Positions 24,719 to 62,311 of a DNA stretch of 64,000 nt are shown one piece after another. The position numbers and the translations under genes were made by a program. Position 1 is the first letter of the stretch, and every line of letters begins with the position of its first letter. The DNA comes from Nitrospirota bacterium. GTDB taxonomy: Bacteria; Nitrospirota; UBA9217. The notes beneath the pieces are model-generated. The model was not told where the DNA came from. It did not search any database and worked only from the letters and a program-made list of their open reading frames with translations. The DNA lies in assembly GCA_963818475.1 (NCBI GenBank), contig CAWFSF010000006.1, forward strand, positions 544,001-608,000, in the 5' to 3' direction.

Positions 24719-24731
24719 TGAGGAGAAGAGC

Positions 24732-27028: not shown

Positions 27029-27119
27029 TGACAGCGTTGCTGCAGTTCTGAAAAGGGAAGGGGCGTACAAACTCCTTCCCTTCTTTGTTACTCATCAAGA
27101 TGCTTTCAACAAACTTCCC

Positions 27120-35640: not shown

Positions 35641-35666
35641 GTCACCTGTCAGTTTTGACAGGTGAC
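35641..35666. promoter_or_regulatory. Perfect 11-bp inverted repeat in the divergent prfB / giant-gene intergenic region
   Basis: GTCACCTGTCA-gttt-TGACAGGTGAC. Confidence 0.5.
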
Positions 35667-36125
35667 ATGCGAGACGACTTAATAGTATACTGCCGGCACT
35701 TAAAATGGAATACTGATACAAAGTTATTCAAATGCTTTATTGGTGTTTGAAACGAAGAGTTTGTTAAATAAAAATAACCAAAAGATGATAATGGGAATGA
35801 ACTCTTATCTTAAGCGCCAACTGTTTTGACTATTTCGACTGCGCAAGCAAAATTTGTATCGCTGGAAGTCACATAATGCAACTTTCCGTCTATACCCTTA
35901 AAAGGGCCCGACATCAACTCTGGCCGCTGATAGCAATGCGATTATCATCGCCTTAACATTTTTTATAGTTCATGCCATGTAAAATTAGAATTTTAGGTTG
36001 AAAAACATTTTAAGTATGCTATAGTCACGCACTTTCATTTACAAATGATCACCATTACTAGAAGCATACCTGTCTGCTGCGAAAAGAAATCGGGCGAATC
36101 GTTTTATTATTGCTGAAAGGATCGA

Positions 36126-39100
36126 ATGACTTTGAGCGTACTTCACATAATCGGGCGTTCCCTGCGAAGTAAAAGACCAGGTACTACGATCATCATCGGT
36201 CTACTTTGTTCGCTGTTGTTCCTCTCCTCCCTGTCCTATGCTCTTATCGATCAAACCCTTTTCGGTCCCAAGCGCTACGATCGTCTCAAGGGCAAACCCA
36301 CGGTTTACACCGACACCTTCAAAGGCTGCAAGAACGGTCAGGCCGTCATCCGCATAACGAACGGCGACAGCAAGGACACGAGGATCACGGCGGCTGAGAT
36401 ATCCGTCAATAACCACCTTATTGCATGGGACAAGGATTTCAAGAAGCAAACCCCTTACTTCGAGAGAGTCGTTACCCTCGGGGACATCAATACTCTTACC
36501 GTAAAACTTAAAAGCGGCCGACACGAAGGATTCGATAAGCAGAACAACAATCATAAAAGCGACCTTAAAAAAGCATCCGCTTCCCGGGGCCATGAAAAAG
36601 TAGATGACCATGATCATCAGAGCGCTTCTTTCCTGATCATCGAGGTTCTCGGCAGGGGCTGCGGCGGAACTTCCGACAGCATTGCTCCGATCATATCGCA
36701 CCCTCAGCCCGCGGACGGAACGCTTCTGAACGGTACCGTTCCAGCCATTTCCGTAGAATACGCTGATGACCCGAACGGTTCGGGAATCGATATCGCCTCG
36801 GCCCGGCTCGCGATCGACAACGGAGATGTGACCGCGTCATCAGTAGTCACGCTCACGGGCATCAGTTACACGCCCTCGTCCAACCTGCCCGAAGGATTCC
36901 ATACGGCGACCGTCACCGTGTCGGACCTGTCGAAGAATCCCGCGAGCCTGACCTGGCACTTCACGACTGACACCGTGGCACCCGTTGCCACGATCACTTC
37001 CCATAAGAACAACCAGTACCTCAACACCCCGACGATCAGCATTTCCGGCAGCGTAGATGATCCCACCGCAACCGTGACCGTGAACAACACGAATGCCTCG
37101 GTCTCGGGAAACACATTCACGCTGTCTAATCTTGCATTGTCCGAAGGACAGAACACGATCACGGCAGTGGCCAAAGACACTGCGGGCAACAGCGGCAAGG
37201 ACAGCATCACGATCAATCTCGATAGCATTGCACCCGCCCCCCCGGTAATAACCCAGCCTGGTACTCCCACGAACGGCGGAAGCATTACCCTTAACGGTGC
37301 TGCCGAAGCCCTGTCGATTGTCAAGATCTACGCCGGGCAAGGCGGTGCTGCTCTTGTCGGAACGGTAGCAGCCGATGCCCAGGGAATGTTCACCCTGAGT
37401 AGCGTCACCCTCGCCGAGGGCGACAATGCTTTTATTGCCACGGCAACGGATGCAACAGGGAATACCGGCAACCCCTCCACGCAGGTCTCGGTCATGCTCG
37501 ACACCGCGGTCCCGATCGTAACCATAACAGCGCCCCAGGCCGATGCCTGGTTCAAGACGCCGGCCGTAACGGTCACGGGCACGGTCAATGAAACTGTTAC
37601 AACGATCACGGTTAACGGGATGCCTGCAACGATCACGGGAGCCGGCTTCAGCCTCGCCGGGGTCCAGCTCGCGGAAGGGCAGAACACCATCGCCGTCGTT
37701 GCAACCGACCTTGCCAATAACCCCGGCGCGGGCAGCGTTCCGGTAATGCTCGACACCATTGCTCCGGTAATTACCATCACGGCGCCGGTAAATGGTTCCT
37801 ACGTAAACACGCCTAAGATCACGGTCGCGGGCAGCATCATTGAACTCAATCCCCTGGAAGTCCGGGTCAATGGTACCCAGATCCCAATTCCGAACGGAGA
37901 TTTCAGCCTTCCGGACATTGCGCTTGCAGAAGGGTTGAACACTATCACCGTTAGCGCAAAGGACAAGGCCGGGAACGAGTCAACGACGTCGGTCACCCTT
38001 ACCCTCGACACCATCGTGCCCCAGATCACGATATCCTCTCCTGCACCGGGGTTGCTCACCCGTACCGCGCAGATCGCGGTCTCCGGTACGGTAAGCGAGG
38101 CCGGCACGGAGGTCACGGTAAACACCACCGCGGCGCTCGTGAGCGGCCAGACGTATAGTGTATTGTATACGCTCAGCGAGGAGCAGAACTCCCTTGTCGC
38201 AAGCGCGACAGACCGCGCCGGGAACACCGGCACAGCAAGCATCACCGTAACGCTCGACAGCACGCCGCCGTCGCCGCCGGTCATCACACCCCTTGCCACG
38301 CCTTCACCCACGCCGATCGTCGTGGTGAACGGCACGTCCGAGCCCGCTTCCACGGTGCACATATACATGACAACGGGCCAGACCACGGCCGTTCTTGCCG
38401 GCACGGTTACTGCAGACGCACAAGGGAGCTTTAGCCTCGCAGACGTAACGCTTGCCGAAGGGATCACCACCTTTACCGCAACTGCCACGGACTCCTTGGG
38501 CAACACCAGCGACACGTCTGCCCCGGTCTCCGTCGAAAAAGACACAACTCCCCCGGTCATCACGGTCGCGAGCCCGTCCAACAATTCCTACACGAGCATC
38601 GCGATAGTCCCGGTCAATGGTTCTCTGGACGACGCAACAGCGAAGCTCATGATCAAGGGGGCAGAGGTCCCGCTCGATGGCATGAACTTCGAGACAACCG
38701 TGACGATTACCGAAGGACTGAACAGTATTTTGTTTACTGCCGAAGATCCGTCGGCGAACACGTCAAGCAAAACACTATTCATTACCCTCGACACCGTGGT
38801 CCCCGCAGTTACGATTACGTCGCCGTTGAACAACGCCCTCGTAACTTCTTCGCAGGTGTCTGTTGGCGGAACGGTGAACGAAGCCGTCACTTCCGTGAGT
38901 GTCAACGGGACCAGTGCGCTGGTTTCGGGCTCGAGCTACAGCCTCTCCACCTACACCCTTTCTGAAGGACAAAACACGATCACGGTGGAGGCGGTCGACC
39001 GGGCAGGGAACAAGGGAACCGCGAGCGTGAACGTTACGCTCGACAGCATTGTCCCGACGGTGAGTCTCTCTGCCCCGGCCCAGGCCGCGGCAGGAGCTAA

Positions 39101-42100: not shown

Positions 42101-45100
42101 GAAGGTCTACGTGGTCCACGACAGCGCCAAGGTGATCGACGGCAGGCTCACCACGGCCAGTCCGCCTTTTTACGGCATTGGTCTCGGCGGATATTTTGTT
42201 TTCGAATTCCCCTATTTTACGGTCGGCATCGTGGATGGCTATACGTACCGCGATATGGACGGTGTCTATGGTTACAAACCGGAGAATGGGGATCTCCCGG
42301 TCAAGAACGCTGTGATCCGGACGCCTGCTGCCTGGCACCATATTACCTACTCTCGGGAAAACGGCTTCTATGCGGCCTTTGCCGAGATCATCGGCAATGT
42401 GCCGGGCATGCCCGACCTGGAATTCAAGTTGACGGCCATCCATCCGTTAACGATGAAGCGCGTGGACATAACGTCTATTCTCAATGCTGAAAATAATATT
42501 GTCCACCTGCAGAACATCAAACTCGCCGGTCAGAGCGATATGCCGCCGGATACAGTGCCTCCGGCCATCAGTTTCAATCTGCAGGTAGCGCCGAACAGCG
42601 CACAGGACGCGAGCCATCAGAATGCCCGGTTCATGGCAGGCACCATATCGATCGGCACGAACCTTTTGACCTCGATCAGCATTATTGATCGGGACGTCGT
42701 GTCACCGACCTTGACGATCACCTGCAGCGGTGCGTGCACCCAGTCTCAGTATTCAGCAGTGCCGACCGTGACCGCGAGCACGGTGTACACGCCTGTCAGC
42801 CAGGAGAACATGGTCGCAACAACGAAGTTTACTTATGCGCCTAACTTCGACTCCGCTATAAGCTCGAACGGAACATTCTTCACCCCCTCCGGAGCGGCCA
42901 CGTACACGCTTACTCTCGAAGCGTCCGATTCTGCAGGCAATCACAGCAGCAGAAGCCTCACCGTCCGCGCTGTTGACCCGGCATCCGTACCTACCGACGG
43001 AGTCAATGGCCGGCCCATCGTGGATGAAATCATCCCGACGGACAATTCGGGAGGCGTCAATGTCGATGCCAAGGTCGAGATCACCTTCAGCGAAATGATG
43101 CAGGAGAGCACCATCAACAACAACACTGTCTCGCTGACCAACCTCGCGACGGGCCTTAGTGAGCCAGTATCGATCGAGTTTGCCGTAGAAGGCAGCCGGA
43201 TGAAGACCATACTGCGGCCTCTGCATCTTTTGAATTTCGATACAACCTATGAAAGTCCTCGTGACACAAGGTGTCCGTGATCTTTTCCCGAATACGTCGC
43301 AGCCGGCAGGCCAGGTTGATGCGAACGGCACTATGGCACTGGATCATGATTATTACGCGGAATTCACGACCAAAGCGCCCCAGGCCTTCGACATCACCCA
43401 ATTGCCGGGCGATACCCCCCCATTCACGGGCAGCCGCGACATCGCGCTCTATACTACGACCGTCAACGATTCGGCCACGGGTACGGAAGAAGAGCGCACC
43501 TATGCCTATGTGCTGACCAGCGCCAACGGCTGGAGGGTCGTGGATGTCACCGATCCCACTAATGCCAGGGTTGTTTACAGTAATCCCTGGGGGCAAAACC
43601 AGGTCGGTCTGCGGAATGTGGCCGTAGACGAGGACCTAAAGATCATGGCCATGACCGAGCTCATCCGACAGACTGAGTTCACCGGTATGATCCGGTTCTA
43701 CGATCTCGCTTCCAACCCGGAGGCACCCCCTATCGTCGGCCATGAGTGGCTTGCGGAAGGTTCCAGCGGAGTGCCCGGCAGGATCGCAATGTCCGGGGGT
43801 TATGCCTACATTGCCACCGGCATGGTCGGCATCCAGGTCGTGGACATCAACGCGACCAGGTCGCTAGCCAGCAGGCCTCATGGAGATGCCATCGTGGGCG
43901 GCCTGCCGACTGTGGACCTGGGCTACGGAAGCCCGCTCGACATCGTCATTCATCGGGCCGGCAAGGGGCTCTTGACCACGACCACGGGATATCTGCTGAC
44001 ACTCGATATCAATCCCACGCAGCCGCAGATCCTGAAACCATACAAACCCGCAGGATTCAGCGCCTGGCGCGTGGCCGCAGCCTCTGACTTCGAATACATC
44101 GACGATCAGGGCAACACCCAGACCATGGACCTGGCGATCGTGAACGGCTTCGAGGGAAAGATCAGCACTGTCGATATCACCGACCCCTACAACCCGCAGC
44201 ACTACACGGTCAAGAACGACGCGGGCGTCGACCGCACCGACTTTTACGTCACTGATATCGTCATAAGCAAAAAAACGCGCCTTGCCTATGCCGCAGCAGG
44301 CGCATCCGTCCTCATCTTCGACCTGTCCAACCCCCGCATTCCCCGTCTGCTCGGGACGATCACGAGTGCTCCCACCGGGGGAGGGACGGGCGATACTTTG
44401 CTCGGCTACTCGATGGCTTTGATCGAGAAGGATGGGTGGGTGTATTTGGCAAACAGTGATCGCGGAATGAGATTGTTGAACCTCACCGCTTTGCAGATCG
44501 AGGTAGATCCGAAATACATCATGCTTGACAACACCGGAAAGCCGGACACGACCAAAATCACCTATCGGCTCAGCCCACCGGATTATCAAGCAGCACCGGC
44601 AAAGGTTGTAGTTTACAAGGACGGAGTGGAATACAAGTCCATCCCTACGGCGGATATCGGTGGCGATGCTGCTACATTTGCGCAATCAGGAGAGTTATTC
44701 GACCTGAATAGTACCTATTATGCGCAAGTCGTGGTAAATGCAGGAATGATCGGAGCCAACGGAGAGAAACGAAGCCAAATCATACCGTTCCTCAAGGAAC
44801 CGCCGCTGGTAACGGATTACAACAGAGACAGAAAAATCGACAACGCGGACATGATGCGTGCAGCCAAGCAGGACACGTTTTATTTCTGGACAGGCTATTG
44901 GGGTGCGGCTGTTAATGGAACAAACGATCTGACTAATTATTTCCCTGTTTATCTTAATATTAAAGATTTGCTAAATATATACGATCCGGGAAAATTTACC
45001 TATCAATTGAAGTCAGCAAACCAAAACTTGATGTTTTTATTTACTGACCTGACTCCAAACACATCTGGAAATTACCTAACTGGCAACGCAACTAGCCTTG

Positions 45101-46542: not shown

Positions 46543-46544
46543 CC

Positions 46545-47531: not shown

Positions 47532-47698
47532 CGAGAGAAGTAATGAGGAACCATAACACTAACTGAGTGACGTTGTAGATTCTATATTGATTCAGACCCA
47601 TAGGGGAAAATTGTAGTTGAAGTTGCGTTGCGGATTTCTATGCGAGCTCGATTCCTTGGTTGGTTGAAAGGGTCAAGGCAATGATAGACAAAGGACCT

Positions 47699-50600: not shown

Positions 50601-53600
50601 GCGAAAAACCGGTGAATGCCGATGGCACCTACCGTTTCGAATATGTTTTCAGGAATGACGATCCCGCCGGACCCTTCATGATCGAGGCGGTGAACGCGGC
50701 AACGAACGAAGCGGGCCAGATCACGGCAGCGGTCCAGGCGCATGGTCAGCGGCTTTCTCTCGATATTTTCATGAAGGCCAAGGGAAATGTGACCGGCGCA
50801 GTGCTTGACGAAAGCGGCAATGCGGTCGCCGGCGCCACGGTCCAGCTGGACACGCTGAACGACAGCCGGCAGTATTTCACCACGACCGACGCCACCGGCT
50901 CATTCTCGTTCTTGAATGTCCGGGTAGGCGCGTTCCGGCTAAAAGCGGTGAGCGTCGCCCTGTATGCCGAAGGGTTGATCATGGGCACGCTGTCCGAAGA
51001 CGGCGGCAATACTGTCCAGAACATAACGATCTACAAAGTTGCCGGTATTGCAAAGGGCGACGTGGCAGGCAAAGTGCTCGGCACGGACGGCAACCCCCGC
51101 TCCGGGGTGGTCGTCATTGTGCGAAGCGGTGAGCGCTATCAGAACTGGATGCGGAGCGGTCCTGACGGGAGCTTCAGCTTCACGGGTGTGACAGCCGGCA
51201 ATCTTACTCTGGATGCGCGGGACGATGCCACCGGTGAAACCGCCCGGGTGAGCGGGACCCTGGTTGAGAACACGACCGCAGTGTTCAACGTGCTCCTGAA
51301 AGGTATTGGCGCGTTCGAATGCCGGGTCATCCGTGAGGACGGGCTCTCGCTTGAGGGTTTTACCGTTATCGCGGAAGTGGGCTATACCAAGCAGGCCGCG
51401 CTCACAGATGCCAGCGGCATAGCCAGGTTCCAAAATATGCCGGTTGGCGACATCCGGGCGTCTCTCCCCGATCCTCGTAATCCCTCCGCGTCACCATTGG
51501 CTCAGGGCACGACGGTGCTCCAGGCGGCGGATGAGACAGCGTTCATAACGCTGTTCATTCCCTTTAAGGCAATGGCAACGGGAGGTATCCAGGGGAGCGT
51601 TTACCGGAGGACTGGCGAGATCTGGCCGAACGCAGAGGTGCGGCTTGTTACCGATCTTATGAGTCTCAAGTATAAACCCTACCGCTCAGATGCTCAGGGC
51701 CGCTTTGTGATCCCTGATCCGGACCCGACAAAGAACGACATTCTGCCGCTGGGCACCTATTATCTGATCGCTCGAGATGGAGCGGAGATCGCCAATGCCC
51801 ACGTTTCCCTCTGGTACGACGGACAGGTCAAGACGCAGGACCTCAGCGCCGCAGGCATGGGCTCCGTCAAGGGAACTATTTACGACCAAACGGGCGTGGA
51901 CCAGAACAACAACCCGGTGCTGATGCCGGCAGGCGCCGATGTGCTGCTCTTTTCCGTGAAGCCCTCTCTCGTGGGGTGGCTCCAGTTCGACTCAAGCACG
52001 CCAACAGCGGTCAAGAGCGATCCTCAGACGGGAAAATATTCCATTCCCGGCGTCTATGCAGGCAACGTCTCTGTCAGGGCATCCAATATATTCAAGCCTA
52101 CGCAGGTTCTCGCAAACGGGTCATTGACGCAGAACGGGCAGGCAGTGACGCTCGATCTGACGCTCAAAGACACGTTCGGTTCCATATCAGGCCACGTACT
52201 CCTTCCGGACGGATCGCCCGCTGGGCCGGGTATCGGCGTGACGATTACCTACGGCAATCCACCGGCGACGGTGACCGTCAGGACCGGAGACTCAGGCGAG
52301 TTCCAGTTCAGACCGGTTGTTCCCGCGGGAAGCTACCGCGTGCTTGTGGAAGACCCCATTTCGACCTTGAAGGCACAAACTTACGTTGCTGTTCCCGCTG
52401 GCAAGGACGTTCCCGTGGATATCCGGCTTCTGGGCAGGGGAGCGGTCATCGTGAATGTTGTTGATGCTGCGGGAGCCGTGGTATCTGGAGCAGAGATAAC
52501 GGTGAGCGGTTCCGGGTTCCCGCAGGATACCGCGGCAGGCACGACGGACCAGAGCGGATCGGCGGTGTTCCTCAATCTTACGGAGGGGAGTTATGCCGTT
52601 TCTGCGAAGGACGGCAATAACCTCGGCGGCAGGGCGCAGGGGAGCATCCCGGCAGACAACGCTTCGGTCACCGTGACCGTAACGCTTGCGCCGTCCGGCA
52701 CGGTGATCGGCCGGTTCCTCAAAGCCGACAACGCCACCCTCATTGCCGGAGGCCAGGTTAAGCTCATGAATTCCTCGCGGCAGGTTATCGCCTACAGTTC
52801 CAGTTCGTCCGAACCGGCGAATCCCGGCGTGTTCCGCTTCGAGTACGTGCCTTTGGGAGATTTTATCCTTGAAGGTTTTGATCCGCTTACGGACCGGAAA
52901 GGGATCGGCGGCGCTAGATTGACGTTCAACGGCCAGACCGTATCCGCGGATATCACGGTAACACCGCAGGGCGTGGTCAAGGGCACGGTATTGAACAACG
53001 CAGGCACGTCGCCCGTGGACGGGGCGCTGGTTTCCATCTCGGTAACCGGTGTGAGCACCTGGGCGTATAGCACGGTTACGGCGCCAGACGGCGGCTATCT
53101 GTTCGCCGGCGTTCCTGCCGGTAAGTTCACCATCAGCGTTACTGACCCCGCAACGAACCTCCGCGGCAGCGCCGCAGGAACGATCTCCTCCGAAAACGAG
53201 ATCGCTCGGGCCGATGTCAGGCTTCAGGCGAGCGGCGGCATTCAGGGCACGGTGTATCTGCCCGACGGCGTCACCCCCGCGCAGAACGTGGTCGTTTCCG
53301 TGACGCCGGGTTCGAAGACCGTCCAGACAAACGCGCAGGGATCCTTCGGATTCACCGGCCTTGTCGCGGGCGTTACCTATTCAATAACGGCAAGCGAGTT
53401 GGGAACTCACCGGGTTAGAAGGACGTCCGCTGTCATTACCTATGAAGGAGAAGTCGCCCAAGCGGACGTAACGCTGTACGGAGTAGGAACGGTGGAAGGC
53501 CTTGTTTACGATTCCGACGGCACGACAGTGCTGACGGGAGCAAAAGTGGACCTGCAGGCTTACGGGATCGGCAGCATTACCTCCCTTTCCGTCACCGTAT

Positions 53601-56600
53601 ATACCGATCTGGAAACGGGCCTGTTCCGGTTCTCCGATGTACCAGCCGGCACCTTTACGCTCAGGGCGACCTACCCGAACAAGTCTACGGCAGCATCGGG
53701 CTCCGGATCTGTTGCCGGCGAGGGCTCGGTCGTACCCATGAATCTTACACTTGGGCCTGTGGCAGAGGTCACGGGTAGAGTTCTCAAGGCCGATACTACA
53801 ACACCGGCTGCGGGCGGCGGGGTGCGGCTAACCTGCGGCTACAAGACGTTCAATACCATCATTGATTCCAGCGGATCGTTCCAGTTCTCCTCCATTCCGG
53901 TCCCCTGTACGCTGATGCTCTATATGGTCGACGCGGAAGGTCTGGGCATCGGCTATTATTCCGGATCGCTCTTGGCCACCGACAACGGCAAGACCGTGGA
54001 TATCGGGACCGTCACGCTCGATGACAAGGTGATCTCCGTGCTCGGCGTCAATCCTGACACCGGGGCAGTGGATGTCCCGGTGACCACGCAGACCGTGTCG
54101 ATAACCTTCTCCGAACCTGCCGATCCGGCCACGGTGAACAATTCCACGATCTACGTTCAGAAGGGGAGCACCCGGTACTGGTGGCCGGTCAGTTTGAACG
54201 CCGACCATACGATCGCATCGATCACGCCGCCCGTTCAGGGGCTCGACAGCTTCACGCTCTATACCGTGGTTGTGGCGGCCAGTGTCAAGGACCGTGTTGG
54301 GAGGACGCTGCCGAATCCCTTCAGCAGCACCTTTACGACGAGAGACACCCTGCCGCCCGCCGTACAGTCTGTGTCTCCGGCGAATGGAACCCTTCAGGCA
54401 GCCCTGGACAGCGTGATACGCGTTACCTTCTCCGAGAGCATCGCCCAGAATTCCACCGGCGGCTTCAGTCTTCTGGTGGGCGGAGCTTCCGTTGAGACGC
54501 GAGTCGACCTCGTCCAGGGAAACACCGTCGCGATCCTGACTCCGATAGCAGCTCTCTCACCCAACGCGACCTACATGGTCATGGTCAGTGGTGCAAAGGA
54601 CGCGGTCGGGAATGTGATGGCAGGGACGCATGTGTCGACCTTCGCAACCATAGATACCATCGTTCCGACCGTGACGAACCTCACGGTCACCGGCGATCTG
54701 ATCAAGGGGAACACGATATCCGCGGTTGCTACAGTGGCGGATACCGACATAGCCTTTGTCGATTTCTTCATGGATAATGTGCTTGTTGCAACAGACAGCA
54801 CCGCACCGTACACTCAGAACATAGTCCTTTCCAAGGAAGGCACCGTTTACCTCAGGGCCGTGGCTCAGGACAAGGTCGGCAACCGGGGCTTGTCATACCC
54901 CCAGCCGGCCATGGAACTGACCATTGCCCAGGACCAGGCCCCGGGTGTGTCCATAACCTCGCCCGCGAACAACAGCACGGTCAACACCGGCTCTTCGTTC
55001 AATGTCTCGGTCACGGCAACGGACGATCTCTTTGCCAAGGATATCACACTCACTTCTACAGGCGAGGTCATCGTTACCCAGACGAAGACCCAGAGCACCG
55101 GCAAGACTTTCCCCACGAACTTCAATGTTGCCGTGCCCCAGGGAGCATTGCCCGGAGGGACCATCACCCTCACGGCAGTTGCTAAAGACTCGGCAGGCCA
55201 GGCAAGTCTGCCTGCAACGATCAGCGTAACGGTTCACGACAATCTTGCGCCGGTGGTAAGCATTACGAGCCCTGGCGTTGCCACGAAGTACCTTCCCGGC
55301 GAGACCGGCACCGCAACGGTCGCCGTGAGCGATAATGCAGGAGTTGTTTCGATCTCCTGTACGGTTTCCGGCGCTGGTTCCGGAGGTCAGACGTTCACCA
55401 TCGCCCCGGCGCAGAAAACAACGTCCCAGAACTTCAATTTCACCGTGTCACCGTCAGCTGCGCCCTATGCAGGGATCACCCTCTCCTGCACTGCGGATGA
55501 CGCGAGCGGAAACCACGGTACTGCGAGCCTCGGCATGTCTGTAGCGGACATCGTGCCGCCGGTCGTGGCGACTACATCAATACCGGACAACGCCGTTAAT
55601 ATTCAGGCCCGGCCTGTTGTCGGTATCACGTTCAACGAAACCCTGCTCCCTGCCTCGGTCAACGGTGCTACTGTAAGCCTGAGCCAGGAAGGCGGCGCTA
55701 TGGTAACAGGTATTGTCGGACTTTCTGCGGACCGCAAGACCGTGAGCTTCACGCCGCAGCAGAACCTGATCATGGCAACGACCTATACGCTCACGATCTC
55801 CGCAGAGGTGAAGGACGAGGCAGGCAATGCGCTCGCAGCGGAATATGCCCTGCACTTTACGACAGACGGCACACCGCCGGCCCTGTCAGCTTCTTCCATC
55901 ACGGACAATGCCGTGGACGTGCCGGTTTCGGCCGCCATCACCGTGTCGTTCAACGAGGCCCTTGCCGTCGCAACAGTCAACGCCGGCTCAGTGGGCCTGG
56001 CCCTGAACGACGGGACCGGAGCTGCTGTTCCGGGCACGGTCGGGCTTTCAGCGGACCACAAGACCATCACGTTCACGCCGGGTTCGGACCTGGTCAAGGG
56101 CAAGACGTACCGGTTTACGATCACTTCGTCTGTCACGGATGAGATCGGGAATGCAATGTCAGGCACTATCATCATCCGGTTCACGACAGTCCTTCCGGAC
56201 ACTATGGCCCCGAAGGTCCAGTCCGTGACACCGGCGAATGGAACCCAGGGCGTTTCCGCCGCAACGGCGATCACCGTCAGCTTCGATGAACCCGTGGACC
56301 GGTCCACGGTCACGCAGGACAGCTTCATCCTGTCCTCGGCAACAGGCACCGTGCCGGGCATCATCACCTTCAACCAGAACAACACAGTCGCCACCTTCCG
56401 GCCGGCTGCGCAACTTTCGTTCATCACGAGTTATGCGGTTATGCTCAAGGCAGGGATTGCCGACCTTGTGGGGAATGCCACAACCGTCGACTACCAATCG
56501 AGCTTTATGACCGGCGGGTTCAGCATCACGAGCCCGCGCCAGAATGCCTACGTCATCCAGGGCAGGACCATTGCACTCACTGCTGCAGTGGAAGGGAGTC

Positions 56601-59600
56601 AGGGTATCTCGGCCGTGAAATTCTATGTGGACAATGTGCTGGTGGGGACAAAGACCGGCACGCCGTTCACCGTAGACTACCTCGTGCCGGTCTCGGGCGG
56701 CACCACCTATCCCGCTATTACCGCCGAGGGAGTGACTGCGGGTCCGAGCATCTGGGCTCCGGGCATTGCCGTGGTGGCGCTTGGAGAAGCGGATGCGATA
56801 GCGGACCCTGACGACGACGGGCTCACCAATGCAGAGGAGATAGAGCTCGGCACCGATCCCAACAAATTCGACAGCGATGGCGACGGGCTCTCCGACTTCG
56901 ATGAGGTTCGGACCCACCTGACAGACCCGCTCAATCCCGACACGGACGGCGACGGTCTCCTGGACGGATGGGAGATCATGTACCAGTACAACCCGATGGC
57001 CGCGGATAGCGACGGGAATGGGACGCCAGACGGCGAGGAAGATCCGGACGCAGACGGGCTCAGGAACAAGTGGGAACAATGCCTCGGCCTGAATCCCCGG
57101 GCGATCAGGACCGATGGCACGAACCTTGACGCGAACCGGGACGACGACCGCGACGGGTGGAAGAACATCGACGAGGTGAACATTTATCATACCAGCCCAT
57201 GCCAGGCAGATACGGACGGCGACGGCGTGGTCGACCCTGACGAGAAGAATATTCTCAATACGAACCCCAACGACCCGGCAGATCTGTACGGCACGGACTT
57301 CGTCTTGAGCGGAGGGAAAACGATAAGGATAGAGGGTCGTGCGTACTTCAACAGTCTGACGGTGACCGGCAATTCCACGATTGCGGCTTTAGCCGCCTCG
57401 ACAAAACAGGTTTCGAAAGTTGAGATAGAGGTAGCAGGGAGCCTGGCAATTGATGCGGGGTCCAAGATCGACGCTACGGGCAAGGGATATCTTGGCGGCT
57501 ATTCCGGCGGGAACGACAGTTACAACGGCCGGACGATCGGCAACACGACCACCGGCGGGAGCGCCTACTACAGCGGAGCGAGCTACGGCGGCTTGGGCGG
57601 TAAATACGGTACATACGCGGTGAATGCGGCGTATGGCGATCTGATGAACCCCGATGAGGTCGGCAGCGGCGGCGGCGCGTATTCCAGTTCAGCCAGTTAT
57701 GCAGGGGGGAACGGCGGCGGGTTGGTGAAGATCAAGGCCGGGACGCTGCATGTGGACGGAAGCATTTTGGCGGACGGCGAAAGCAAATTTAACGCATCCG
57801 GCTGGCTCATGAGCGGTGGGAGCGGCGGCGGGATAGTGATCAACGCGTCAACACTTTCCGGGACAGGAACGCTCAGCGCGAAAGGCGGTTCGACGTCCGC
57901 ATACAGTAATGGTACCGGAGGCGGCGGCGCGGGCGGCGGTGGGAGGATCGCAATTTACTATGATGTGCTTTCGCTTTCTACGACGAGCATCATAGCCTCG
58001 GGCGGAAAGAACGGCAACGGCACCACGGTCGCATACAACGGCGGGGCCGGGACCGTGTATCTCAAATCGAGCAGCCAGATGCAGGGTGATCTGGTTATAA
58101 ACAACAACGGTATAATCACCACGAATACGACTCCTGTCACCGGTGGGACGTATGAGAGCGTGAAGGTCAGTGGAGGAGCCACCGCATCAATGAACGGTAC
58201 GCTGGTCCCCGGCGGCGCTCTGGTCATCGCAGACAGCACCATGACCTTCGCGTCCGGATTCAGCGTAGGAGGCGATCTGCTGCTTAGCAACAGCCAGGTG
58301 ACGTTCTCCGGCGCAGTCTCCGTGCCAGGAAACCTTACGCTTGTTAAGAGCACCCTAACCTCGTTTGTTGCAATAAACGTTGCGGGCACGCTTACGCTTC
58401 AGGATCAGAGTGTCATAACCCATGCCGGAGCGACCACAACGAGCCAGTATATGCTCGATATCGAGGCTGCGCATATCACCATCGATTCAACCTCCCGGAT
58501 CGACGCTACGGGCAAGGGATATCTTGGCGGCTATTCCGGCGGGAACGACAGTTACAACGGCCGGACGATCGGCAACACGACCACCGGCGGGAGCGCCTAC
58601 TACAGCGGAGCGAGCTACGGCGGCTTGGGCGGTAAATACGGTACATACGCGGTGAATGCGGCGTATGGCGATCTGATGAACCCCGATGAGGTCGGCAGCG
58701 GCGGCGGCGCGTATTCCAGTTCAGCCAGTTATGCAGGGGGGAACGGCGGCGGGTTGGTGAAGATCAAGGCCGGGACGCTGCATGTGGACGGAAGCATTTT
58801 GGCGGACGGCGAAAGCAAATTTAACGCATCCGGCTGGCTCATGAGCGGTGGGAGCGGCGGCGGGATAGTGATCAACGCGTCAACACTTTCCGGGACAGGA
58901 ACGCTCAGCGCGAAAGGCGGTTCGACGTCCGCATACAGTAATGGTACCGGAGGCGGCGGCGCGGGCGGCGGTGGGAGGATCGCAATTTACTATGATGTGC
59001 TTTCGCTTTCTACGACGAGCATCATAGCCTCGGGCGGAAAGAACGGCAACGGCACCACGGTCGCATACAACGGCGGGGCCGGGACCGTGTATCTCAAATC
59101 GAGCAGCCAGATGCAGGGTGATCTGGTTATAAACAACAACGGTATAATCACCACGAATACGACTCCTGTCACCGGTGGGACGTATGAGAGCGTGAAGGTC
59201 AGTGGAGGAGCCACCGCATCAATGAACGGTACGCTGGTCCCCGGCGGCGCTCTGGTCATCGCAGACAGCACCATGACCTTCGCGTCCGGATTCAGCGTAG
59301 GAGGCGATCTGCTGCTTAGCAACAGCCAGGTGACGTTCTCCGGCGCAGTCTCCGTGCCAGGAAACCTTACGCTTGTTAAGAGCACCCTAACCTCGTTTGT
59401 TGCAATAAACGTTACGGGCACGCTTACGCTTCAGGATCAGAGTGTCATAACCCATGCCGGAGCGACCACAACGAGCCAGTATATGCTCGATATCGAGGCT
59501 GCGCATATCACCATCGATTCAACCTCCCGGATCGACGCTACGGGCAAGGGATATCTTGGCGGCTATTCCGGCGGGAACGACAGTTACAACGGCCGGACGA

Positions 59601-62311
59601 TCGGCAACACGACCACCGGCGGGAGCGCCTACTACAGCGGAGCGAGCTACGGCGGCTTGGGCGGTAAATACGGTACATACGCGGTGAATGCGGCGTATGG
59701 CGATCTGATGAACCCCGATGAGGTCGGCAGCGGCGGCGGCGCGTATTCCAGTTCAGCCAGTTATGCAGGGGGGAACGGCGGCGGGTTGGTGAAGATCAAG
59801 GCCGGGACGCTGCATGTGGACGGAAGCATTTTGGCGGACGGCGAAAGCAAATTTAACGCATCCGGCTGGCTCATGAGCGGTGGGAGCGGCGGCGGGATAG
59901 TGATCAACGCGTCAACACTTTCCGGGACAGGAACGCTCAGCGCGAAAGGCGGTTCGACGTCCGCATACAGTAATGGTACCGGAGGCGGCGGCGCGGGCGG
60001 CGGTGGGAGGATCGCAATTTACTATGATGTGCTTTCGCTTTCTACGACGAGCATCATAGCCTCGGGCGGAAAGAACGGCAACGGCACCACGGTCGCATAC
60101 AACGGCGGGGCCGGGACCGTGTATCTCAAATCGAGCAGCCAGATGCAGGGTGATCTGGTTATAAACAACAACGGTATAATCACCACGAATACGACTCCTG
60201 TCACCGGTGGGACGTATGAGAGCGTGAAGGTCAGTGGAGGAGCCACCGCATCAATGAACGGTACGCTGGTCCCCGGCGGCGCTCTGGTCATCGCAGACAG
60301 CACCATGACCTTCGCGTCCGGATTCAGCGTAGGAGGCGATCTGCTGCTTAGCAACAGCCAGGTGACGTTCTCCGGCGCAGTCTCCGTGCCAGGAAACCTT
60401 ACGCTTGTTAAGAGCACCCTAACCTCGTTTGTTGCAATAAACGTTGCGGGCACGCTTACGCTTCAGGATCAGAGTGTCATAACCCATGCCGGAGCGACCA
60501 CAACGAGCCAGTATATGCTCGATATCGAGGCTGCGCATATCACCATCGATTCAACCTCCCGGATCGACGCTACGGGCAAGGGATATCTTGGCGGCTATTC
60601 CGGCGGGAACGACAGTTACAACGGCCGGACGATCGGCAACACGACCACCGGCGGGAGCGCCTACTACAGCGGAGCGAGCTACGGCGGCTTGGGCGGTAAA
60701 TACGGTACATACGCGGTGAATGCGGCGTATGGCGATCTGATGAACCCCGATGAGGTCGGCAGCGGCGGCGGCGCGTATTCCAGTTCAGCCAGTTATGCAG
60801 GGGGGAACGGCGGCGGGTTGGTGAAGATCAAGGCCGGGACGCTGCATGTGGACGGAAGCATTTTGGCGGACGGCGAAAGCAAATTTAACGCATCCGGCTG
60901 GCTCATGAGCGGTGGGAGCGGCGGCGGGATAGTGATCAACGCGTCAACACTTTCCGGGACAGGAACGCTCAGCGCGAAAGGCGGTTCGACGTCCGCATAC
61001 AGTAATGGTACCGGAGGCGGCGGCGCGGGCGGCGGTGGGAGGATCGCAATTTACTATGATGTGCTTTCGCTTTCTACGACGAGCATCATAGCCTCGGGCG
61101 GAAAGAACGGCAACGGCACCACGGTCGCATACAACGGCGGGGCCGGGACCGTATATCTCAAATCGAGCAGCCAGATGCAGGGTGATCTGGTTATTGATAA
61201 TCAGGACTTGGATACTAATGATAACTCGACACCGTTGCTTTCGATTGGTTCCGGGATAGTATCAACGATCACGGCAACAAGCCTTACCAACGATTTAGCG
61301 GCCTGGACGCCAGGCTCGCTCAAGGGCGCCACGATCAATCCGAATGTCAATCAGGGAACTATTTTCACGGTTATCGATAATACCTCCACAACACTCTATG
61401 TCGACCCTGCAGATGGAGATCTGACTGCGGTTGCGACGGCCGGCAATACCTATTCCGGCGTTATACGGCTATATACGTTGACCCTTCGGGGAAAAGCCAA
61501 GGTCCTTTGCCTTGATCGCTTCGAGATCGATTCGGAATTGCATGCGGACAAAAGCAGCTTTACTGCGGTTCATCTTGCGGCAGTCAAGGCAACTCTGAGC
61601 AACGGAGCCCTGCTGACCCATCCGAATGCTTCGCTCACGAACGAATACAGGCTTGTAATGAACGTAACCGACGCCCTATCCATCGATACGAACTCTATAA
61701 TCGACGTCACGGGCAAGGGCTATCTTGGAGGGTATTCGGGAGGCAGTACCAGCATGACAGGCAGGACCGTGGGGAACACAACCGTCGGCGGGAGCACGTC
61801 GTACAATGGAGGAAGCTACGGAGGGAAAGGCGGTATCTACACCAGCGGCAGCTCGAACGCCATATATCCCGATCCGGCAAATCCAGAATCGGAAAAACAT
61901 CCTGAGCATGTGGGCAGCGGCGGCGGCGCTTATTCCAGCTCTGCCGCATACGCAGGCGGGAACGGCGGCGGTCTCATACAGATAACGGCCGGCTCGCTGC
62001 AACTGGATGGAAACATAACGGCTGACGGAGAGAATAGAATTAACACGAGCGGATATTACTATGGCGCCGGGAGCGGCGGCGGAATCCTGCTTGACGTAGG
62101 GATTCTTACCGGTGACATCACCGGAAGGGTCAGCGCCATGGGCGGGGCAAGCACGTACGGAGGCGCTGGTGGTGGCGGACGTATCGCAATCTACTATGCG
62201 GACAAGACCGGGTTTAATGGGACAGCATTATCGGATGGCGGCTTGAGTGGCAACGGGAGTACGCCTTCCAGGAACGGTGGGGCCGGAACCGTGTACTCTC
62301 AGCCAAAATAG
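47699..62311 (+). CDS. Giant secreted surface protein (about 4870 aa): carboxypeptidase-regulatory-like and Ig repeats, DxDxDG Ca-binding repeats, Gly-rich beta-helix-like repeats
   Basis: SD AAGGA then MKKLLYILLAVLLASSLCGVSFA; G.V.G.V...G.P repeats; F.EP.D..T Ig domains; DSDGDGL.D repeats; GGGSGG/GGGGRIAIYY repeats. Confidence 0.9.
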   Translation: MKKLLYILLAVLLASSLCGVSFAQQTPTPIANMTFSIVGMTMQAGPEYQAVPKGIASQVNTGFESNGEPISAELAAMLPKDFKVQAELTGPTYATPLTLTTTPGQPFPLPTFPMLGKYSLSNIRVVDGAGKAFMAATPQSVTIESISDPLITSVTTRPLTLQEIQDRGVVVDSTNFTVYEFTAAIGTESNQQPLNFPVLIPNQTQAQNVQDLPPPTEIGLTEQEVNVLPPNLNLPENISISGFVMAADDEMMDKLGGYALPPIPGVIIIPNNIGFLNQYFSALLMVTNGAPGASNLVVKDLKGTIIMPVGEDQTPGTDAAPGDDPLRMAKGADAYFPRTAAVINAGPDGKIGTSDDTGLLRPAESGQADFTIEGRREGTHKIDFNISATLEGLPIGPITITGKATGAVLVRNPDFSITLGHPATVRAGEEYDLFITITNTSKSIANLVSTHMDPRALSGAVMVAGEDPDKRIDTILPGSSATVKYRLLSQRTGKVTATAFVADPNVTGRFVLRVGVGELGIPLSPDSLIIPYTGSLPQNIVDAAVGLLGQAWSVATAPTGALPSDVLPISRQTIVSRANDLSEAGLRILYGEQAVKAVEDLAFDFIGSDNANVGLDSLRRRSTQGQSLNAAIAGVLQSEVQSVGAMVFQSGFADLMTYRPGHLSVITTEAPVFVQVTEAGGKRVGALGTGDLYREISYADQLTLTEGTNGQGQGTRSTLSLITKLGSASYRLDVKAAADASFDIGIVVPGASTLRQVRFSNLSLAAESNAWVELLPGTDTEYVLNIDVNGDGVADQSVVSSISTILDPGPRVVAATQMTPLVGPGGDKHGRNVAVLFSERVNKLAAEDLANYAVEENAARLVKLQPSGRMAFVLLRDGIGPFFGSAGSDGKFYGRAITVSGLTDRLGKAMDAPETRPIVITAIGPAAVVSGTVRTAQGTPISDARIRLLQPVWVERYFVREIEYLIFSEKPVNADGTYRFEYVFRNDDPAGPFMIEAVNAATNEAGQITAAVQAHGQRLSLDIFMKAKGNVTGAVLDESGNAVAGATVQLDTLNDSRQYFTTTDATGSFSFLNVRVGAFRLKAVSVALYAEGLIMGTLSEDGGNTVQNITIYKVAGIAKGDVAGKVLGTDGNPRSGVVVIVRSGERYQNWMRSGPDGSFSFTGVTAGNLTLDARDDATGETARVSGTLVENTTAVFNVLLKGIGAFECRVIREDGLSLEGFTVIAEVGYTKQAALTDASGIARFQNMPVGDIRASLPDPRNPSASPLAQGTTVLQAADETAFITLFIPFKAMATGGIQGSVYRRTGEIWPNAEVRLVTDLMSLKYKPYRSDAQGRFVIPDPDPTKNDILPLGTYYLIARDGAEIANAHVSLWYDGQVKTQDLSAAGMGSVKGTIYDQTGVDQNNNPVLMPAGADVLLFSVKPSLVGWLQFDSSTPTAVKSDPQTGKYSIPGVYAGNVSVRASNIFKPTQVLANGSLTQNGQAVTLDLTLKDTFGSISGHVLLPDGSPAGPGIGVTITYGNPPATVTVRTGDSGEFQFRPVVPAGSYRVLVEDPISTLKAQTYVAVPAGKDVPVDIRLLGRGAVIVNVVDAAGAVVSGAEITVSGSGFPQDTAAGTTDQSGSAVFLNLTEGSYAVSAKDGNNLGGRAQGSIPADNASVTVTVTLAPSGTVIGRFLKADNATLIAGGQVKLMNSSRQVIAYSSSSSEPANPGVFRFEYVPLGDFILEGFDPLTDRKGIGGARLTFNGQTVSADITVTPQGVVKGTVLNNAGTSPVDGALVSISVTGVSTWAYSTVTAPDGGYLFAGVPAGKFTISVTDPATNLRGSAAGTISSENEIARADVRLQASGGIQGTVYLPDGVTPAQNVVVSVTPGSKTVQTNAQGSFGFTGLVAGVTYSITASELGTHRVRRTSAVITYEGEVAQADVTLYGVGTVEGLVYDSDGTTVLTGAKVDLQAYGIGSITSLSVTVYTDLETGLFRFSDVPAGTFTLRATYPNKSTAASGSGSVAGEGSVVPMNLTLGPVAEVTGRVLKADTTTPAAGGGVRLTCGYKTFNTIIDSSGSFQFSSIPVPCTLMLYMVDAEGLGIGYYSGSLLATDNGKTVDIGTVTLDDKVISVLGVNPDTGAVDVPVTTQTVSITFSEPADPATVNNSTIYVQKGSTRYWWPVSLNADHTIASITPPVQGLDSFTLYTVVVAASVKDRVGRTLPNPFSSTFTTRDTLPPAVQSVSPANGTLQAALDSVIRVTFSESIAQNSTGGFSLLVGGASVETRVDLVQGNTVAILTPIAALSPNATYMVMVSGAKDAVGNVMAGTHVSTFATIDTIVPTVTNLTVTGDLIKGNTISAVATVADTDIAFVDFFMDNVLVATDSTAPYTQNIVLSKEGTVYLRAVAQDKVGNRGLSYPQPAMELTIAQDQAPGVSITSPANNSTVNTGSSFNVSVTATDDLFAKDITLTSTGEVIVTQTKTQSTGKTFPTNFNVAVPQGALPGGTITLTAVAKDSAGQASLPATISVTVHDNLAPVVSITSPGVATKYLPGETGTATVAVSDNAGVVSISCTVSGAGSGGQTFTIAPAQKTTSQNFNFTVSPSAAPYAGITLSCTADDASGNHGTASLGMSVADIVPPVVATTSIPDNAVNIQARPVVGITFNETLLPASVNGATVSLSQEGGAMVTGIVGLSADRKTVSFTPQQNLIMATTYTLTISAEVKDEAGNALAAEYALHFTTDGTPPALSASSITDNAVDVPVSAAITVSFNEALAVATVNAGSVGLALNDGTGAAVPGTVGLSADHKTITFTPGSDLVKGKTYRFTITSSVTDEIGNAMSGTIIIRFTTVLPDTMAPKVQSVTPANGTQGVSAATAITVSFDEPVDRSTVTQDSFILSSATGTVPGIITFNQNNTVATFRPAAQLSFITSYAVMLKAGIADLVGNATTVDYQSSFMTGGFSITSPRQNAYVIQGRTIALTAAVEGSQGISAVKFYVDNVLVGTKTGTPFTVDYLVPVSGGTTYPAITAEGVTAGPSIWAPGIAVVALGEADAIADPDDDGLTNAEEIELGTDPNKFDSDGDGLSDFDEVRTHLTDPLNPDTDGDGLLDGWEIMYQYNPMAADSDGNGTPDGEEDPDADGLRNKWEQCLGLNPRAIRTDGTNLDANRDDDRDGWKNIDEVNIYHTSPCQADTDGDGVVDPDEKNILNTNPNDPADLYGTDFVLSGGKTIRIEGRAYFNSLTVTGNSTIAALAASTKQVSKVEIEVAGSLAIDAGSKIDATGKGYLGGYSGGNDSYNGRTIGNTTTGGSAYYSGASYGGLGGKYGTYAVNAAYGDLMNPDEVGSGGGAYSSSASYAGGNGGGLVKIKAGTLHVDGSILADGESKFNASGWLMSGGSGGGIVINASTLSGTGTLSAKGGSTSAYSNGTGGGGAGGGGRIAIYYDVLSLSTTSIIASGGKNGNGTTVAYNGGAGTVYLKSSSQMQGDLVINNNGIITTNTTPVTGGTYESVKVSGGATASMNGTLVPGGALVIADSTMTFASGFSVGGDLLLSNSQVTFSGAVSVPGNLTLVKSTLTSFVAINVAGTLTLQDQSVITHAGATTTSQYMLDIEAAHITIDSTSRIDATGKGYLGGYSGGNDSYNGRTIGNTTTGGSAYYSGASYGGLGGKYGTYAVNAAYGDLMNPDEVGSGGGAYSSSASYAGGNGGGLVKIKAGTLHVDGSILADGESKFNASGWLMSGGSGGGIVINASTLSGTGTLSAKGGSTSAYSNGTGGGGAGGGGRIAIYYDVLSLSTTSIIASGGKNGNGTTVAYNGGAGTVYLKSSSQMQGDLVINNNGIITTNTTPVTGGTYESVKVSGGATASMNGTLVPGGALVIADSTMTFASGFSVGGDLLLSNSQVTFSGAVSVPGNLTLVKSTLTSFVAINVTGTLTLQDQSVITHAGATTTSQYMLDIEAAHITIDSTSRIDATGKGYLGGYSGGNDSYNGRTIGNTTTGGSAYYSGASYGGLGGKYGTYAVNAAYGDLMNPDEVGSGGGAYSSSASYAGGNGGGLVKIKAGTLHVDGSILADGESKFNASGWLMSGGSGGGIVINASTLSGTGTLSAKGGSTSAYSNGTGGGGAGGGGRIAIYYDVLSLSTTSIIASGGKNGNGTTVAYNGGAGTVYLKSSSQMQGDLVINNNGIITTNTTPVTGGTYESVKVSGGATASMNGTLVPGGALVIADSTMTFASGFSVGGDLLLSNSQVTFSGAVSVPGNLTLVKSTLTSFVAINVAGTLTLQDQSVITHAGATTTSQYMLDIEAAHITIDSTSRIDATGKGYLGGYSGGNDSYNGRTIGNTTTGGSAYYSGASYGGLGGKYGTYAVNAAYGDLMNPDEVGSGGGAYSSSASYAGGNGGGLVKIKAGTLHVDGSILADGESKFNASGWLMSGGSGGGIVINASTLSGTGTLSAKGGSTSAYSNGTGGGGAGGGGRIAIYYDVLSLSTTSIIASGGKNGNGTTVAYNGGAGTVYLKSSSQMQGDLVIDNQDLDTNDNSTPLLSIGSGIVSTITATSLTNDLAAWTPGSLKGATINPNVNQGTIFTVIDNTSTTLYVDPADGDLTAVATAGNTYSGVIRLYTLTLRGKAKVLCLDRFEIDSELHADKSSFTAVHLAAVKATLSNGALLTHPNASLTNEYRLVMNVTDALSIDTNSIIDVTGKGYLGGYSGGSTSMTGRTVGNTTVGGSTSYNGGSYGGKGGIYTSGSSNAIYPDPANPESEKHPEHVGSGGGAYSSSAAYAGGNGGGLIQITAGSLQLDGNITADGENRINTSGYYYGAGSGGGILLDVGILTGDITGRVSAMGGASTYGGAGGGGRIAIYYADKTGFNGTALSDGGLSGNGSTPSRNGGAGTVYSQPK
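57466..61194 (+). repeat. 1032-bp (344-aa) tandem repeat, about 3.6 near-identical copies
   Basis: Units start at 57466, 58498, 59530 and 60562; only two substitutions noticed (near 59414 and 61153); a diverged extra copy lies at about 61700-62300. Confidence 0.95.

What the first reader, a model, noticed from the sequence alone, without database searches (positions are those of the whole stretch)
36126..62311. Giant two-protein surface system with a lipase-like tip and an immunity-like gene: candidate uncharacterised polymorphic toxin system
Seen: a roughly 3470-aa secreted Ig/LVIVD-repeat protein. After a DYNRDRKID motif near 44815 its DNA turns visibly AT-richer and encodes an alpha/beta-hydrolase (FVHGYN, AHSLG, candidate Asp in DDVL and His in RHSD). 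An AT-rich exported 328-aa gene starts 2 nt later, then GC rises again for a roughly 4870-aa co-oriented secreted partner. No Rhs/YD core, VgrG, PAAR, haemagglutinin, TpsB, RTX or autotransporter barrel is visible. Established: a conserved stalk, a compositionally distinct toxin tip and an adjacent periplasmic immunity gene is the polymorphic-toxin pattern, and lipase effectors (Tle) have exported immunity proteins. Inference: a contact-dependent toxin system on a novel Ig scaffold, with the second giant as a structural or adhesive partner.
Basis: partly seen in the sequence, partly recalled or inferred. Interest (0 to 1): 0.82.

Follow-up and report, generated by a model that had tools for sequence, protein, structure and literature searches.

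The report
Swappable-tip toxin giant with partner giant
A very large secreted bacterial protein ends in an interchangeable enzyme tip (here a lipase-like one), is followed by a matching protective gene, and is inherited together with a second giant protein, which points to an undescribed form of bacterial neighbour-killing system in environmental bacteria.

Summary
Giant 1 (G1) is split by a frameshift near 43250, probably an assembly error: relatives read through it, and 15 of 82 conserved genes in this genome also shift frame. Its Ig/ZU5-like/LVIVD stalk is GC-rich; its alpha/beta-hydrolase tip (invariant Ser and His) and the exported 328-aa gene are AT-rich.

In relatives the same stalk carries at least eight other tip types: NlpC/P60, M74-like, lysozyme-like, PGAP1 lipase, phospholipase A2, phosphodiesterase, Rhs-toxin and unknown. 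Each tip type that could be checked has its own downstream gene family. This tip was followed by this gene family in 16 of 16 cases.

Giant 2 (G2) sits beside G1 in 17 loci and co-diverges with it (rho 0.87). One divergent subfamily has non-enzymatic tips and no immunity gene.

Verdict: a polymorphic toxin-immunity system on an undescribed two-giant platform, probably exported by Sec and T2SS. Toxicity, neutralisation, G1-G2 binding and the export route are inferred, not shown.

The parts
36126..43280 (+). G1, 5' ORF (2384 aa): signal-peptide-like start, about ten Ig domains, carboxypeptidase-regulatory-like domain, three ZU5-like repeats, Big_5 domains
   Evidence: Glucodextran_B, Big_13, Big_5; ZU5 hit at aa 1891-1962, E 1.2e-4; the other two ZU5-like repeats are my reading of the alignment
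43247..43280 (+). Frame change between the two G1 ORFs, most likely an assembly indel
   Evidence: homologues continuous across it; 15 of 82 conserved genes in G000 shift frame
43249..44493 (+). End of a Big_5 domain plus the LVIVD beta-propeller: last conserved part of the stalk
44494..44814 (+). Ig-like adaptor segment, shared with giants of other scaffolds; contains the GC3 change point (44551-44587)
44815..46542 (+). Swappable tip: Dx-N-x-D motif, beta-sandwich domain, then DUF900-like alpha/beta-hydrolase. Ser 45739-45741, candidate acid 46039-46044, His 46465-46467
   Evidence: (pLDDT 95); swap point at the same motif in G487
46545..47531 (+). Candidate immunity protein (ImmA, 328 aa): signal peptide, transthyretin/prealbumin-like domain, HmuY-like domain
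   Evidence: (pLDDT 94)
47699..62311 (+). G2, partner giant (4870 aa): signal peptide, about 1000-aa conserved region of no known family, carboxypeptidase-regulatory-like repeats, Big_5 domains, TSP3 repeats, Gly-rich repeats
57466..61194 (+). About 3.6 copies of a 1032-bp Gly-rich repeat in G2, 99.8-99.9% identical, weakly like the AgmC N-terminal domain
   Evidence: E 2e-7, far below the curated cut-off
35500..36125 (+). AT-rich upstream region with sigma70-like sites (8 found in 35400-36200 against 2.4 +/- 1.6 in shuffles; one 10/12 site with TG at 35998-36025)
   Evidence: consensus match only

Best explanation
This is a polymorphic antibacterial toxin-immunity locus built on a two-giant surface platform. 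G1 is exported by Sec (signal peptide seen) and probably through the outer membrane by the type II system (inferred). It forms a long Ig/ZU5-like stalk that ends in a beta-propeller and presents a C-terminal enzyme. Here the enzyme is a serine hydrolase that most likely attacks membrane lipids of neighbouring cells. The 328-aa exported protein binds and blocks it in the producer's periplasm during export and when kin attack (inferred). Recombination in the stalk end replaces the tip and its immunity gene together (shown by comparative genomics). G2 is a co-inherited non-catalytic partner with variable binding-type C-termini; most likely it anchors or assembles with G1, or binds the target surface (inferred).
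For: Tip variation on one stalk: of 58 stalk hits taken from the 150 listed, 46 had at least 150 aa after the propeller. They fall into NlpC/P60-type (cluster of 17; 13 complete), M74-like (4), lysozyme-like by motif (4), PGAP1/DUF676 lipase (3 + 1 truncated), DUF900-like (3 + 2 truncated), phosphodiesterase (2), PLA2 (1), Rhs core (4 + 1 truncated; one ends in a TNT-family domain, E 4e-15) and 4 unassigned. Cognate pairing among fetched loci with room downstream: DUF900 tip to ImmA 16/16, NlpC/P60 to NHL-FN3 gene 3/3, PGAP1 to Big_2 gene 3/3, second DUF900 clade to a distant ImmA relative 2/2, M74 1/1 (hhalign). Of 19 ImmA copies, 16 follow the tip, 2 follow another ImmA, 1 is alone. Orphan cassettes: G487 (stalk end 98% identical, tips 49%, immunity 43%, swap at the DGNRDG motif), G103, L103, and the G401 array on another scaffold. 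Third-position GC falls from stalk to tip to next gene in 10 of 10 enzyme-tip or unknown-tip cases. Genes after envelope-acting tips have hydrophobic signal-like N-termini; the gene after the TNT-family tip has none. G1-G2 co-divergence over 16 pairs: rho 0.87, 0 of 2000 permutations reach it. T2SS genes present (GspD above its cut-off); no VipB found.
Against: No activity, toxicity, expression or binding was measured. A divergent subfamily (G471, G495, G551, G583) has the two giants with non-enzymatic ends, little or no GC drop, and either no intervening gene or a PpiC isomerase gene, so the platform does not need a toxin. G2's N-terminus was not found in 5 of 10 G1-positive fragmented genomes. 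G1's middle region was not found in 3 of 5 G2-positive ones, and 4 further G2-positive genomes showed neither a propeller match nor G1 nearby. Some pair counts are circular: several loci were fetched with ImmA, and query loci match themselves. NlpC/P60 and M74 labels reach Pfam in only one member each (E 3e-5 and 4e-4); the lysozyme label is by motif only. No membrane anchor or autoprotease motif was found, so surface retention and tip release are unexplained. The window copy is frameshifted as sequenced.
Confidence: 0.75

Rival explanations
1. A surface-displayed scavenging or matrix-remodelling enzyme platform. Tips digest lipids, cell-wall debris or nucleotides for nutrition or biofilm remodelling, and the downstream gene is a dedicated chaperone or product-binding protein.
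For: Zhang et al. 2012 (PMC3482391, passage read) note ZU5 domains in large surface proteins with glycohydrolases, lipases and phosphodiesterases for degrading extracellular polymers. Phosphodiesterase tips exist. ImmA has a HmuY-like, ligand-binding-type fold (Z 9.9, rmsd 3.4 over 137 residues). A non-toxin subfamily exists.
Against: Rhs cores with a TNT-family domain on the same stalk. Orphan cassettes and extra immunity-like genes without an intact enzyme (G487 tandem ImmA, G401, G103:C13, G024). In G401 two tips 95% identical carry partners only 61% identical. A chaperone would not be expected to pile up without its client.
Confidence: 0.12
2. A predation or anti-eukaryote apparatus: giants attach to prey or grazers and digest their envelope, and the small gene only protects the producer.
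For: Most tips attack peptidoglycan or lipids. Giant proteins with attachment and wall-degrading domains near T2SS genes are proposed for predatory Omnitrophota (10.1101/2023.11.21.568195, abstract and passages read).
Against: Those giants are described with many transmembrane regions and SecA-like domains; G1 and G2 have no hydrophobic 19-residue window above 1.7 after the signal peptide. Tip-specific immunity and cassette swapping fit conflict among close relatives better. That paper does not mention LVIVD, Nitrospir- or Desulfo-.
Confidence: 0.08
3. The window copy itself is a dead pseudogene, or G2 is only a neighbouring adhesin with no functional tie to G1.
For: Frameshift near 43250. Several genomes show only one giant. 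Co-divergence can follow from simple physical linkage.
Against: About one conserved gene in five in this assembly is frameshifted (15 of 82), so a break in a 10-kb gene is expected. Adjacency is kept although gene order flips (G2 before G1 in G611 and G477) and across phyla. No full-length G2 with long flanks on both sides lacked G1 among the loci examined.
Confidence: 0.15

Closest known systems
Sec/T2SS-exported polymorphic toxin systems, including ZU5-containing ones (Zhang et al. 2012, PMC3482391; passages read)
   Same: Signal peptide, long presentation region, variable C-terminal toxin, toxin-immunity gene order, standalone cassettes; toxin classes NlpC/P60, alpha/beta-hydrolase and PLA2 are listed there.
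   Different: There the ZU5 domain is N-terminal to an Rhs filament and tied to SpvB/TcdB-TcaC export. Here the stalk is Ig + three internal ZU5-like repeats + LVIVD propeller, Rhs is optional (fused, separate gene, or absent), no conserved His-containing cleavage motif was seen, and a second giant is co-inherited.
T6SS lipase effector-immunity pairs Tle1-5/Tli1-5 (PMC6099711, passages read)
   Same: Serine-hydrolase fold with an adjacent exported partner; Tle3 is among the structural neighbours (Z 11.6, tied with many ordinary hydrolases). A PGAP1-like (Tle4-like) tip occurs on sister stalks.
   Different: Fused to a Sec-exported giant; no VipB in the genome. Only DUF900 and Abhydrolase_8 hit the tip. 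The partner fold is transthyretin-like plus HmuY-like.
CdiA/CdiB contact-dependent inhibition (definition from the Zhang 2012 table; the rest recalled)
   Same: Giant stalk, swappable C-terminus, cognate immunity, orphan cassettes.
   Different: No TpsA secretion domain, haemagglutinin repeats or CdiB porin gene. Tips are mostly envelope-acting with exported immunity. The partner is a 4870-aa soluble-type giant.
Giant Omnitrophota prey-adhesion proteins (10.1101/2023.11.21.568195, abstract and passages)
   Same: Very large proteins with attachment modules and wall-degrading enzymes, T2SS in the genome.
   Different: Much larger, multi-membrane-spanning, SecA-like domains; no immunity or polymorphism described in the passages searched.

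Membership tests
Polymorphic toxin system (Zhang 2012 definition) | [quoted passage not shown] | tested here: met
Polymorphic toxin system (Zhang 2012 definition) | Cognate immunity-type gene directly after the toxin, changing with it | tested here: met
   (16/16, 3/3, 3/3, 2/2, 1/1); genomic pattern only
Polymorphic toxin system (Zhang 2012 definition) | Standalone toxin-immunity cassettes and strings of immunity genes | tested here: met
   In relatives G487, G103, L103, G161; none in the window's own genome
Polymorphic toxin system (Zhang 2012 definition) | N-terminal trafficking signal | tested here: met
   Signal-peptide-like N-terminus by eye and hydropathy; no dedicated predictor available
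Polymorphic toxin system (Zhang 2012 definition) | C-terminal domain is toxic and is neutralised by the downstream protein | not testable with these tools
   Needs bench assay; catalytic Ser and His are invariant
T6SS Tle1-5 lipase effectors | Delivery by a type VI system | tested here: not met
   VipB family not found in G000 (91% complete); no VgrG, PAAR or Hcp hit in the locus proteins; Sec-type signal present
T6SS Tle1-5 lipase effectors | Sequence membership of a Tle family model (DUF2235, Lipase_3, DUF3274, PGAP1, PLD; family-to-Pfam mapping recalled) | tested here: not met
   Window tip hits only DUF900 (E 1e-4) and Abhydrolase_8 at E <= 0.05
T6SS Tle1-5 lipase effectors | Serine-hydrolase fold with a GxSxG-type nucleophile elbow | tested here: met
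   AHSLG; alpha/beta-hydrolase matches Z 11-14
CdiA/CdiB (T5SS) | TpsA secretion domain, haemagglutinin repeats, adjacent CdiB porin | tested here: not met
Rhs/YD toxins | YD-repeat core before the toxin domain | tested here: not met
   Absent from the window proteins; present in some stalk homologues
ZU5-autoprocessed toxins of the TcdB/TcaC route | N-terminal ZU5 with autopeptidase motif plus SpvB domain | tested here: not met
   ZU5-like repeats are internal, no SpvB hit, no conserved His in the aligned region aa 1071-2060 (some proteins were represented by more than one row)
Known immunity-protein families | Match of ImmA to a curated immunity family or fold | tested here: inconclusive
   113 members hit only Ig or prealbumin-like Pfam families; fold matches are per-domain only

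The most novel reading that the evidence does not exclude
G1 and G2 form a dedicated two-protein extracellular machine, a contact-killing route distinct from CDI, T6SS and plain Rhs. It evolved from a non-toxic adhesion platform and can carry a fused envelope enzyme, a fused Rhs-caged cytoplasmic toxin, or a separately encoded Rhs protein docked on the propeller. It moves as a unit between Nitrospirota-like and deltaproteobacterial genomes, and G2 relatives extend to Acidobacteria, Myxococcota and Betaproteobacteria.
Probability: 0.3. Interest if true: 0.86.

Novelty: new variant of a known kind. Interest (0 to 1): 0.7.

Why it matters
It adds an undescribed scaffold, a lipase-like toxin clade (256 tip relatives) and an immunity family of unusual fold (267 relatives) to bacterial conflict systems, in environmental lineages. 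My literature searches found no description. How Sec-exported giant toxins cross the outer membrane, stay on the surface and reach a target is poorly understood, and a co-inherited second giant offers a concrete candidate. Named records show that a cultured non-pathogen, Geotalea uraniireducens, encodes a G2 homologue and two ImmA homologues, so the idea can be tested. The tip catalogue is also a source of new envelope-attacking enzymes with matched inhibitors.

Tried and rejected
Complex prediction of tip plus ImmA: no answer (score 0.00, folded without alignments); not used as evidence either way.

Sequencing runs: one DNA run with a 0.05 word share, short contigs of relatives only, no listed piece spanning the frameshift; no RNA holder listed.

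Metagenome scan with the single stalk sequence found nothing; the alignment found 11 loci, four of them unrelated LVIVD proteins.

ESM Atlas for the G2 N-terminus and the G1 middle gave only scores <= 0.80. The PDB sequence search with the G2 N-terminal profile gave one chance-level hit. Foldseek gave no whole-protein match for the tip or ImmA. Tandem Repeats Finder found nothing because the G2 period exceeds its limit; BLAST found the repeat.

ZU5 autoproteolytic release was considered and is not supported. No paralogue of the tip or ImmA elsewhere in G000. The first frameshift count (23 of 80) included shadow frames and was replaced, which drops queries with in-frame stops. A Pfam scan of the whole tip alignment was not obtained.

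Earlier-findings look-ups returned nothing. Literature searches returned zero papers; others listed nothing describing this system (listings only, apart from the three papers read in passages). The library lacks most subscription journals, and the supplements of Zhang 2012 were not examined and may list members of this family.

Full report
OBSERVATION. The region lies between prfB (34314-35258, minus) and thiC (from 62968). It holds four co-oriented ORFs: 36126-43280 (2384 aa), 43249-46542 (1097 aa), 46545-47531 (328 aa) and 47660/47699-62311 (4883/4870 aa). Homologues in G103, G111, G487, G608 and others are continuous there. In this 7-contig assembly 15 of 82 conserved genes tested (92 kb) also change frame, so an assembly indel is the likely cause; no reads were available to prove it. 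Third-position GC is 0.69 in the stalk, 0.41 in the tip, 0.30 in the small gene and 0.71 in G2. The change point is 44551-44587, far above shuffles. The names of the best named hits suggest a Nitrospirota host (inference).

G1 ANATOMY. Signal-peptide-like start, about ten Ig domains, a carboxypeptidase-regulatory-like domain, ZU5-like repeats (one Pfam hit, two by inspection), Big_5 domains and an LVIVD propeller. No transmembrane-like segment follows the signal peptide. The tip models with pLDDT 95 as a beta-sandwich plus alpha/beta-hydrolase; its structural neighbours are lipases and esterases at Z 11-14 with none standing out. Ser316 and His558 are invariant in 81 sequences, and the DDVL acidic positions are conserved. 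The substrate is therefore inferred, not shown.

THE SMALL GENE. It has 267 relatives, no curated family beyond Ig or prealbumin-like hits, and an all-beta model (pLDDT 94). The model has a transthyretin-like N-domain and a HmuY-like C-domain (Z 9.9, rmsd 3.4, 137 residues).

DOES THE TIP VARY? Yes. A phmmer search with the propeller region gave 54 representatives at E <= 1e-30. I took 58 of the 150 listed (those matching as a stalk rather than as generic LVIVD repeats); 46 had at least 150 aa downstream. Tips: NlpC/P60-type (cluster of 17, 13 complete), M74-like (4), lysozyme-like by motif (4), PGAP1/DUF676 lipase (3 + 1 truncated), DUF900-like as in the window (3 + 2 truncated), phosphodiesterase (2), PLA2 (1), Rhs core with variable end (4 + 1 truncated; one TNT-family) and 4 unassigned. 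G111, of the same family, has the G1 N-terminal part beside prfB and the amidase gene as in the window, and on another contig an NlpC/P60-type tip, a different small gene and G2 (the join between contigs is inferred). In four loci G1 stops just after the propeller and a separate Rhs gene follows (L105, G477, G751, G523).

DOES THE PARTNER GENE FOLLOW THE TIP? Among distinct tip ends with at least 400 nt downstream: DUF900 to ImmA 16/16, NlpC/P60 to an NHL-FN3 gene 3/3, PGAP1 to a Big_2 gene 3/3, a second DUF900 clade to a distant ImmA relative 2/2 (hhalign probability 90), M74 to one gene 1/1; two ends lacked room. Of 19 ImmA copies with upstream room, 16 follow the tip, 2 follow another ImmA and 1 is alone. 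Part of this is circular, because some loci were fetched with ImmA and query loci match themselves; those fetched by tip or stalk show the same. The tip-ImmA pair also sits on unrelated scaffolds (L001, G401, G169, G238), so it is a mobile cassette. Partners of envelope-acting tips have hydrophobic N-termini; the partner of the TNT-family tip does not.

CASSETTES. G487, a single-contig genome, has full G1, a partner gene, a duplicated stalk end (98% identical) with a 49% identical tip and its own partner, a tip fragment followed by two ImmA genes, then G2. G103 (M74 tip, then NlpC/P60 tip) and L103 (DUF900 tip, then PGAP1 tip) show similar arrays. This matches the template in Zhang et al. 2012 (PMC3482391, passages).

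G2. It has 110 full-length relatives, with names from Geobacteraceae, Desulfuromonadales, Acidobacteria, Myxococcota and Betaproteobacteria. The N-terminal part is conserved, while the C-termini fall into 20 clusters whose listed Pfam families are binding or structural types; one relative ends in a tip fragment. G1 or its tip lies directly upstream in 15 loci, and G2 lies upstream of G1 in 2. In 7 loci housekeeping genes precede G2 and the contig ends at or within it; 4 are truncated relics. Against strict linkage, G2 was not found in 5 of 10 G1-positive fragmented genomes and G1 not in 3 of 5 G2-positive ones. Across 16 pairs the two giants co-diverge (rho 0.87, 0 of 2000 permutations; kin are not independent), and the window's pair is closer to deltaproteobacterial pairs than to that of a same-genus genome, G254. 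The system is patchy: G2 in 12 of 401 genomes of the phylum and 18 of 371 in the class of G401; the G1 propeller in 12 of 391 there.

A NON-TOXIC BRANCH. In G471, G495, G551 and G583 G1 ends in PKD, LTD or unassigned modules, with little or no GC drop, and is followed directly by G2 or by a PpiC gene. An immunity-like gene thus appears where the tip is an enzyme, which fits the toxin reading, but it also shows that the two-giant platform has a role of its own.

MECHANISM. Shown: modular architecture, tip exchange, cognate pairing, cassettes, co-inheritance. Inferred: Sec export, then T2SS (GspD, F, G and K present; VipB not found); surface display helped by G2; lipid hydrolysis in a neighbour's envelope; periplasmic neutralisation by ImmA. 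Anchoring and release are unexplained. It works like a Tle/Tli pair on a CdiA-like stalk but is a member of neither family.

VERDICT. A new variant of polymorphic toxin systems, confidence 0.75, interest 0.70. Papers seen: PMC3482391 (passages), PMC6099711 (passages), 10.1101/2023.11.21.568195 (abstract and passages); all others as search listings only.

Noticed in passing
G000:C5:179000-202000 and C5:627000-644000; also C1 ~305000-313600, C6 ~822000-830000, C5 ~750000-757000, C6 ~900000: The same genome has several Rhs loci. The two mapped show an Ig-rich giant (1396 and 1750 aa), a small gene with a Cys-rich end, an Rhs gene, then strings of orphan Rhs ends with AT-rich small genes: a second 'partner giant plus toxin array' design.
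   Followed up: partly
L055/L056 (G230), L057/L058 (G202), L059 (G200), L051/L052 (G169), L141/L003/L142 (G401): A parallel family of 1600-2300-aa proteins (transglutaminase-like domain in the two scanned) shares the adaptor segment and carries phosphodiesterase or DUF900 tips with their own partner genes and cassettes. In G230, G202, G169 and G401 a different large giant follows.
   Followed up: partly
L088 (G103:C13:20000-34000): A cluster of orphan immunity-like genes and short G1 and G2 fragments among transposase-like genes, apart from the main locus.
   Followed up: partly
L044, L126, L003, L137, L129: Y1/IS200-like (REP-associated-type) transposase genes sit repeatedly between cassettes in these loci (one confirmed by Pfam) and may take part in cassette turnover.
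   Followed up: no
L003:2801-13032 (G401): Two tips 95% identical differ mainly in the last 120 aa (81%), while their immunity genes are only 61% identical; this may mark the binding surface.
   Followed up: partly
L147 and L149 (G471, G551): G1 relatives of the non-toxic branch carry an internal Peptidase_C70 papain-like domain (E about 1e-26) before the propeller.
   Followed up: no
P0410: A G2 relative ends in the last 87 aa of the DUF900 tip: a deletion fusion or an assembly chimera.
   Followed up: no
P0122 and L132:10457-12711 (G587): An AT-rich tip of no Pfam family, followed by an AT-rich 183-aa gene: a candidate new toxin domain.
   Followed up: partly
window 20827-28702: An NHL/FG-GAP repeat protein followed by multiheme cytochromes and a ResB-like gene, a possible extracellular electron-transfer cluster.
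   Followed up: no
window 35258-35424 (minus strand): The prfB ORF lacks the first part of the PCRF domain, as expected for the usual programmed frameshift of this gene (recalled).
   Followed up: no
L105:9672-11453: A reverse-transcriptase-like ORF (group II intron type, by motif) lies between the Rhs gene and G2.
   Followed up: no
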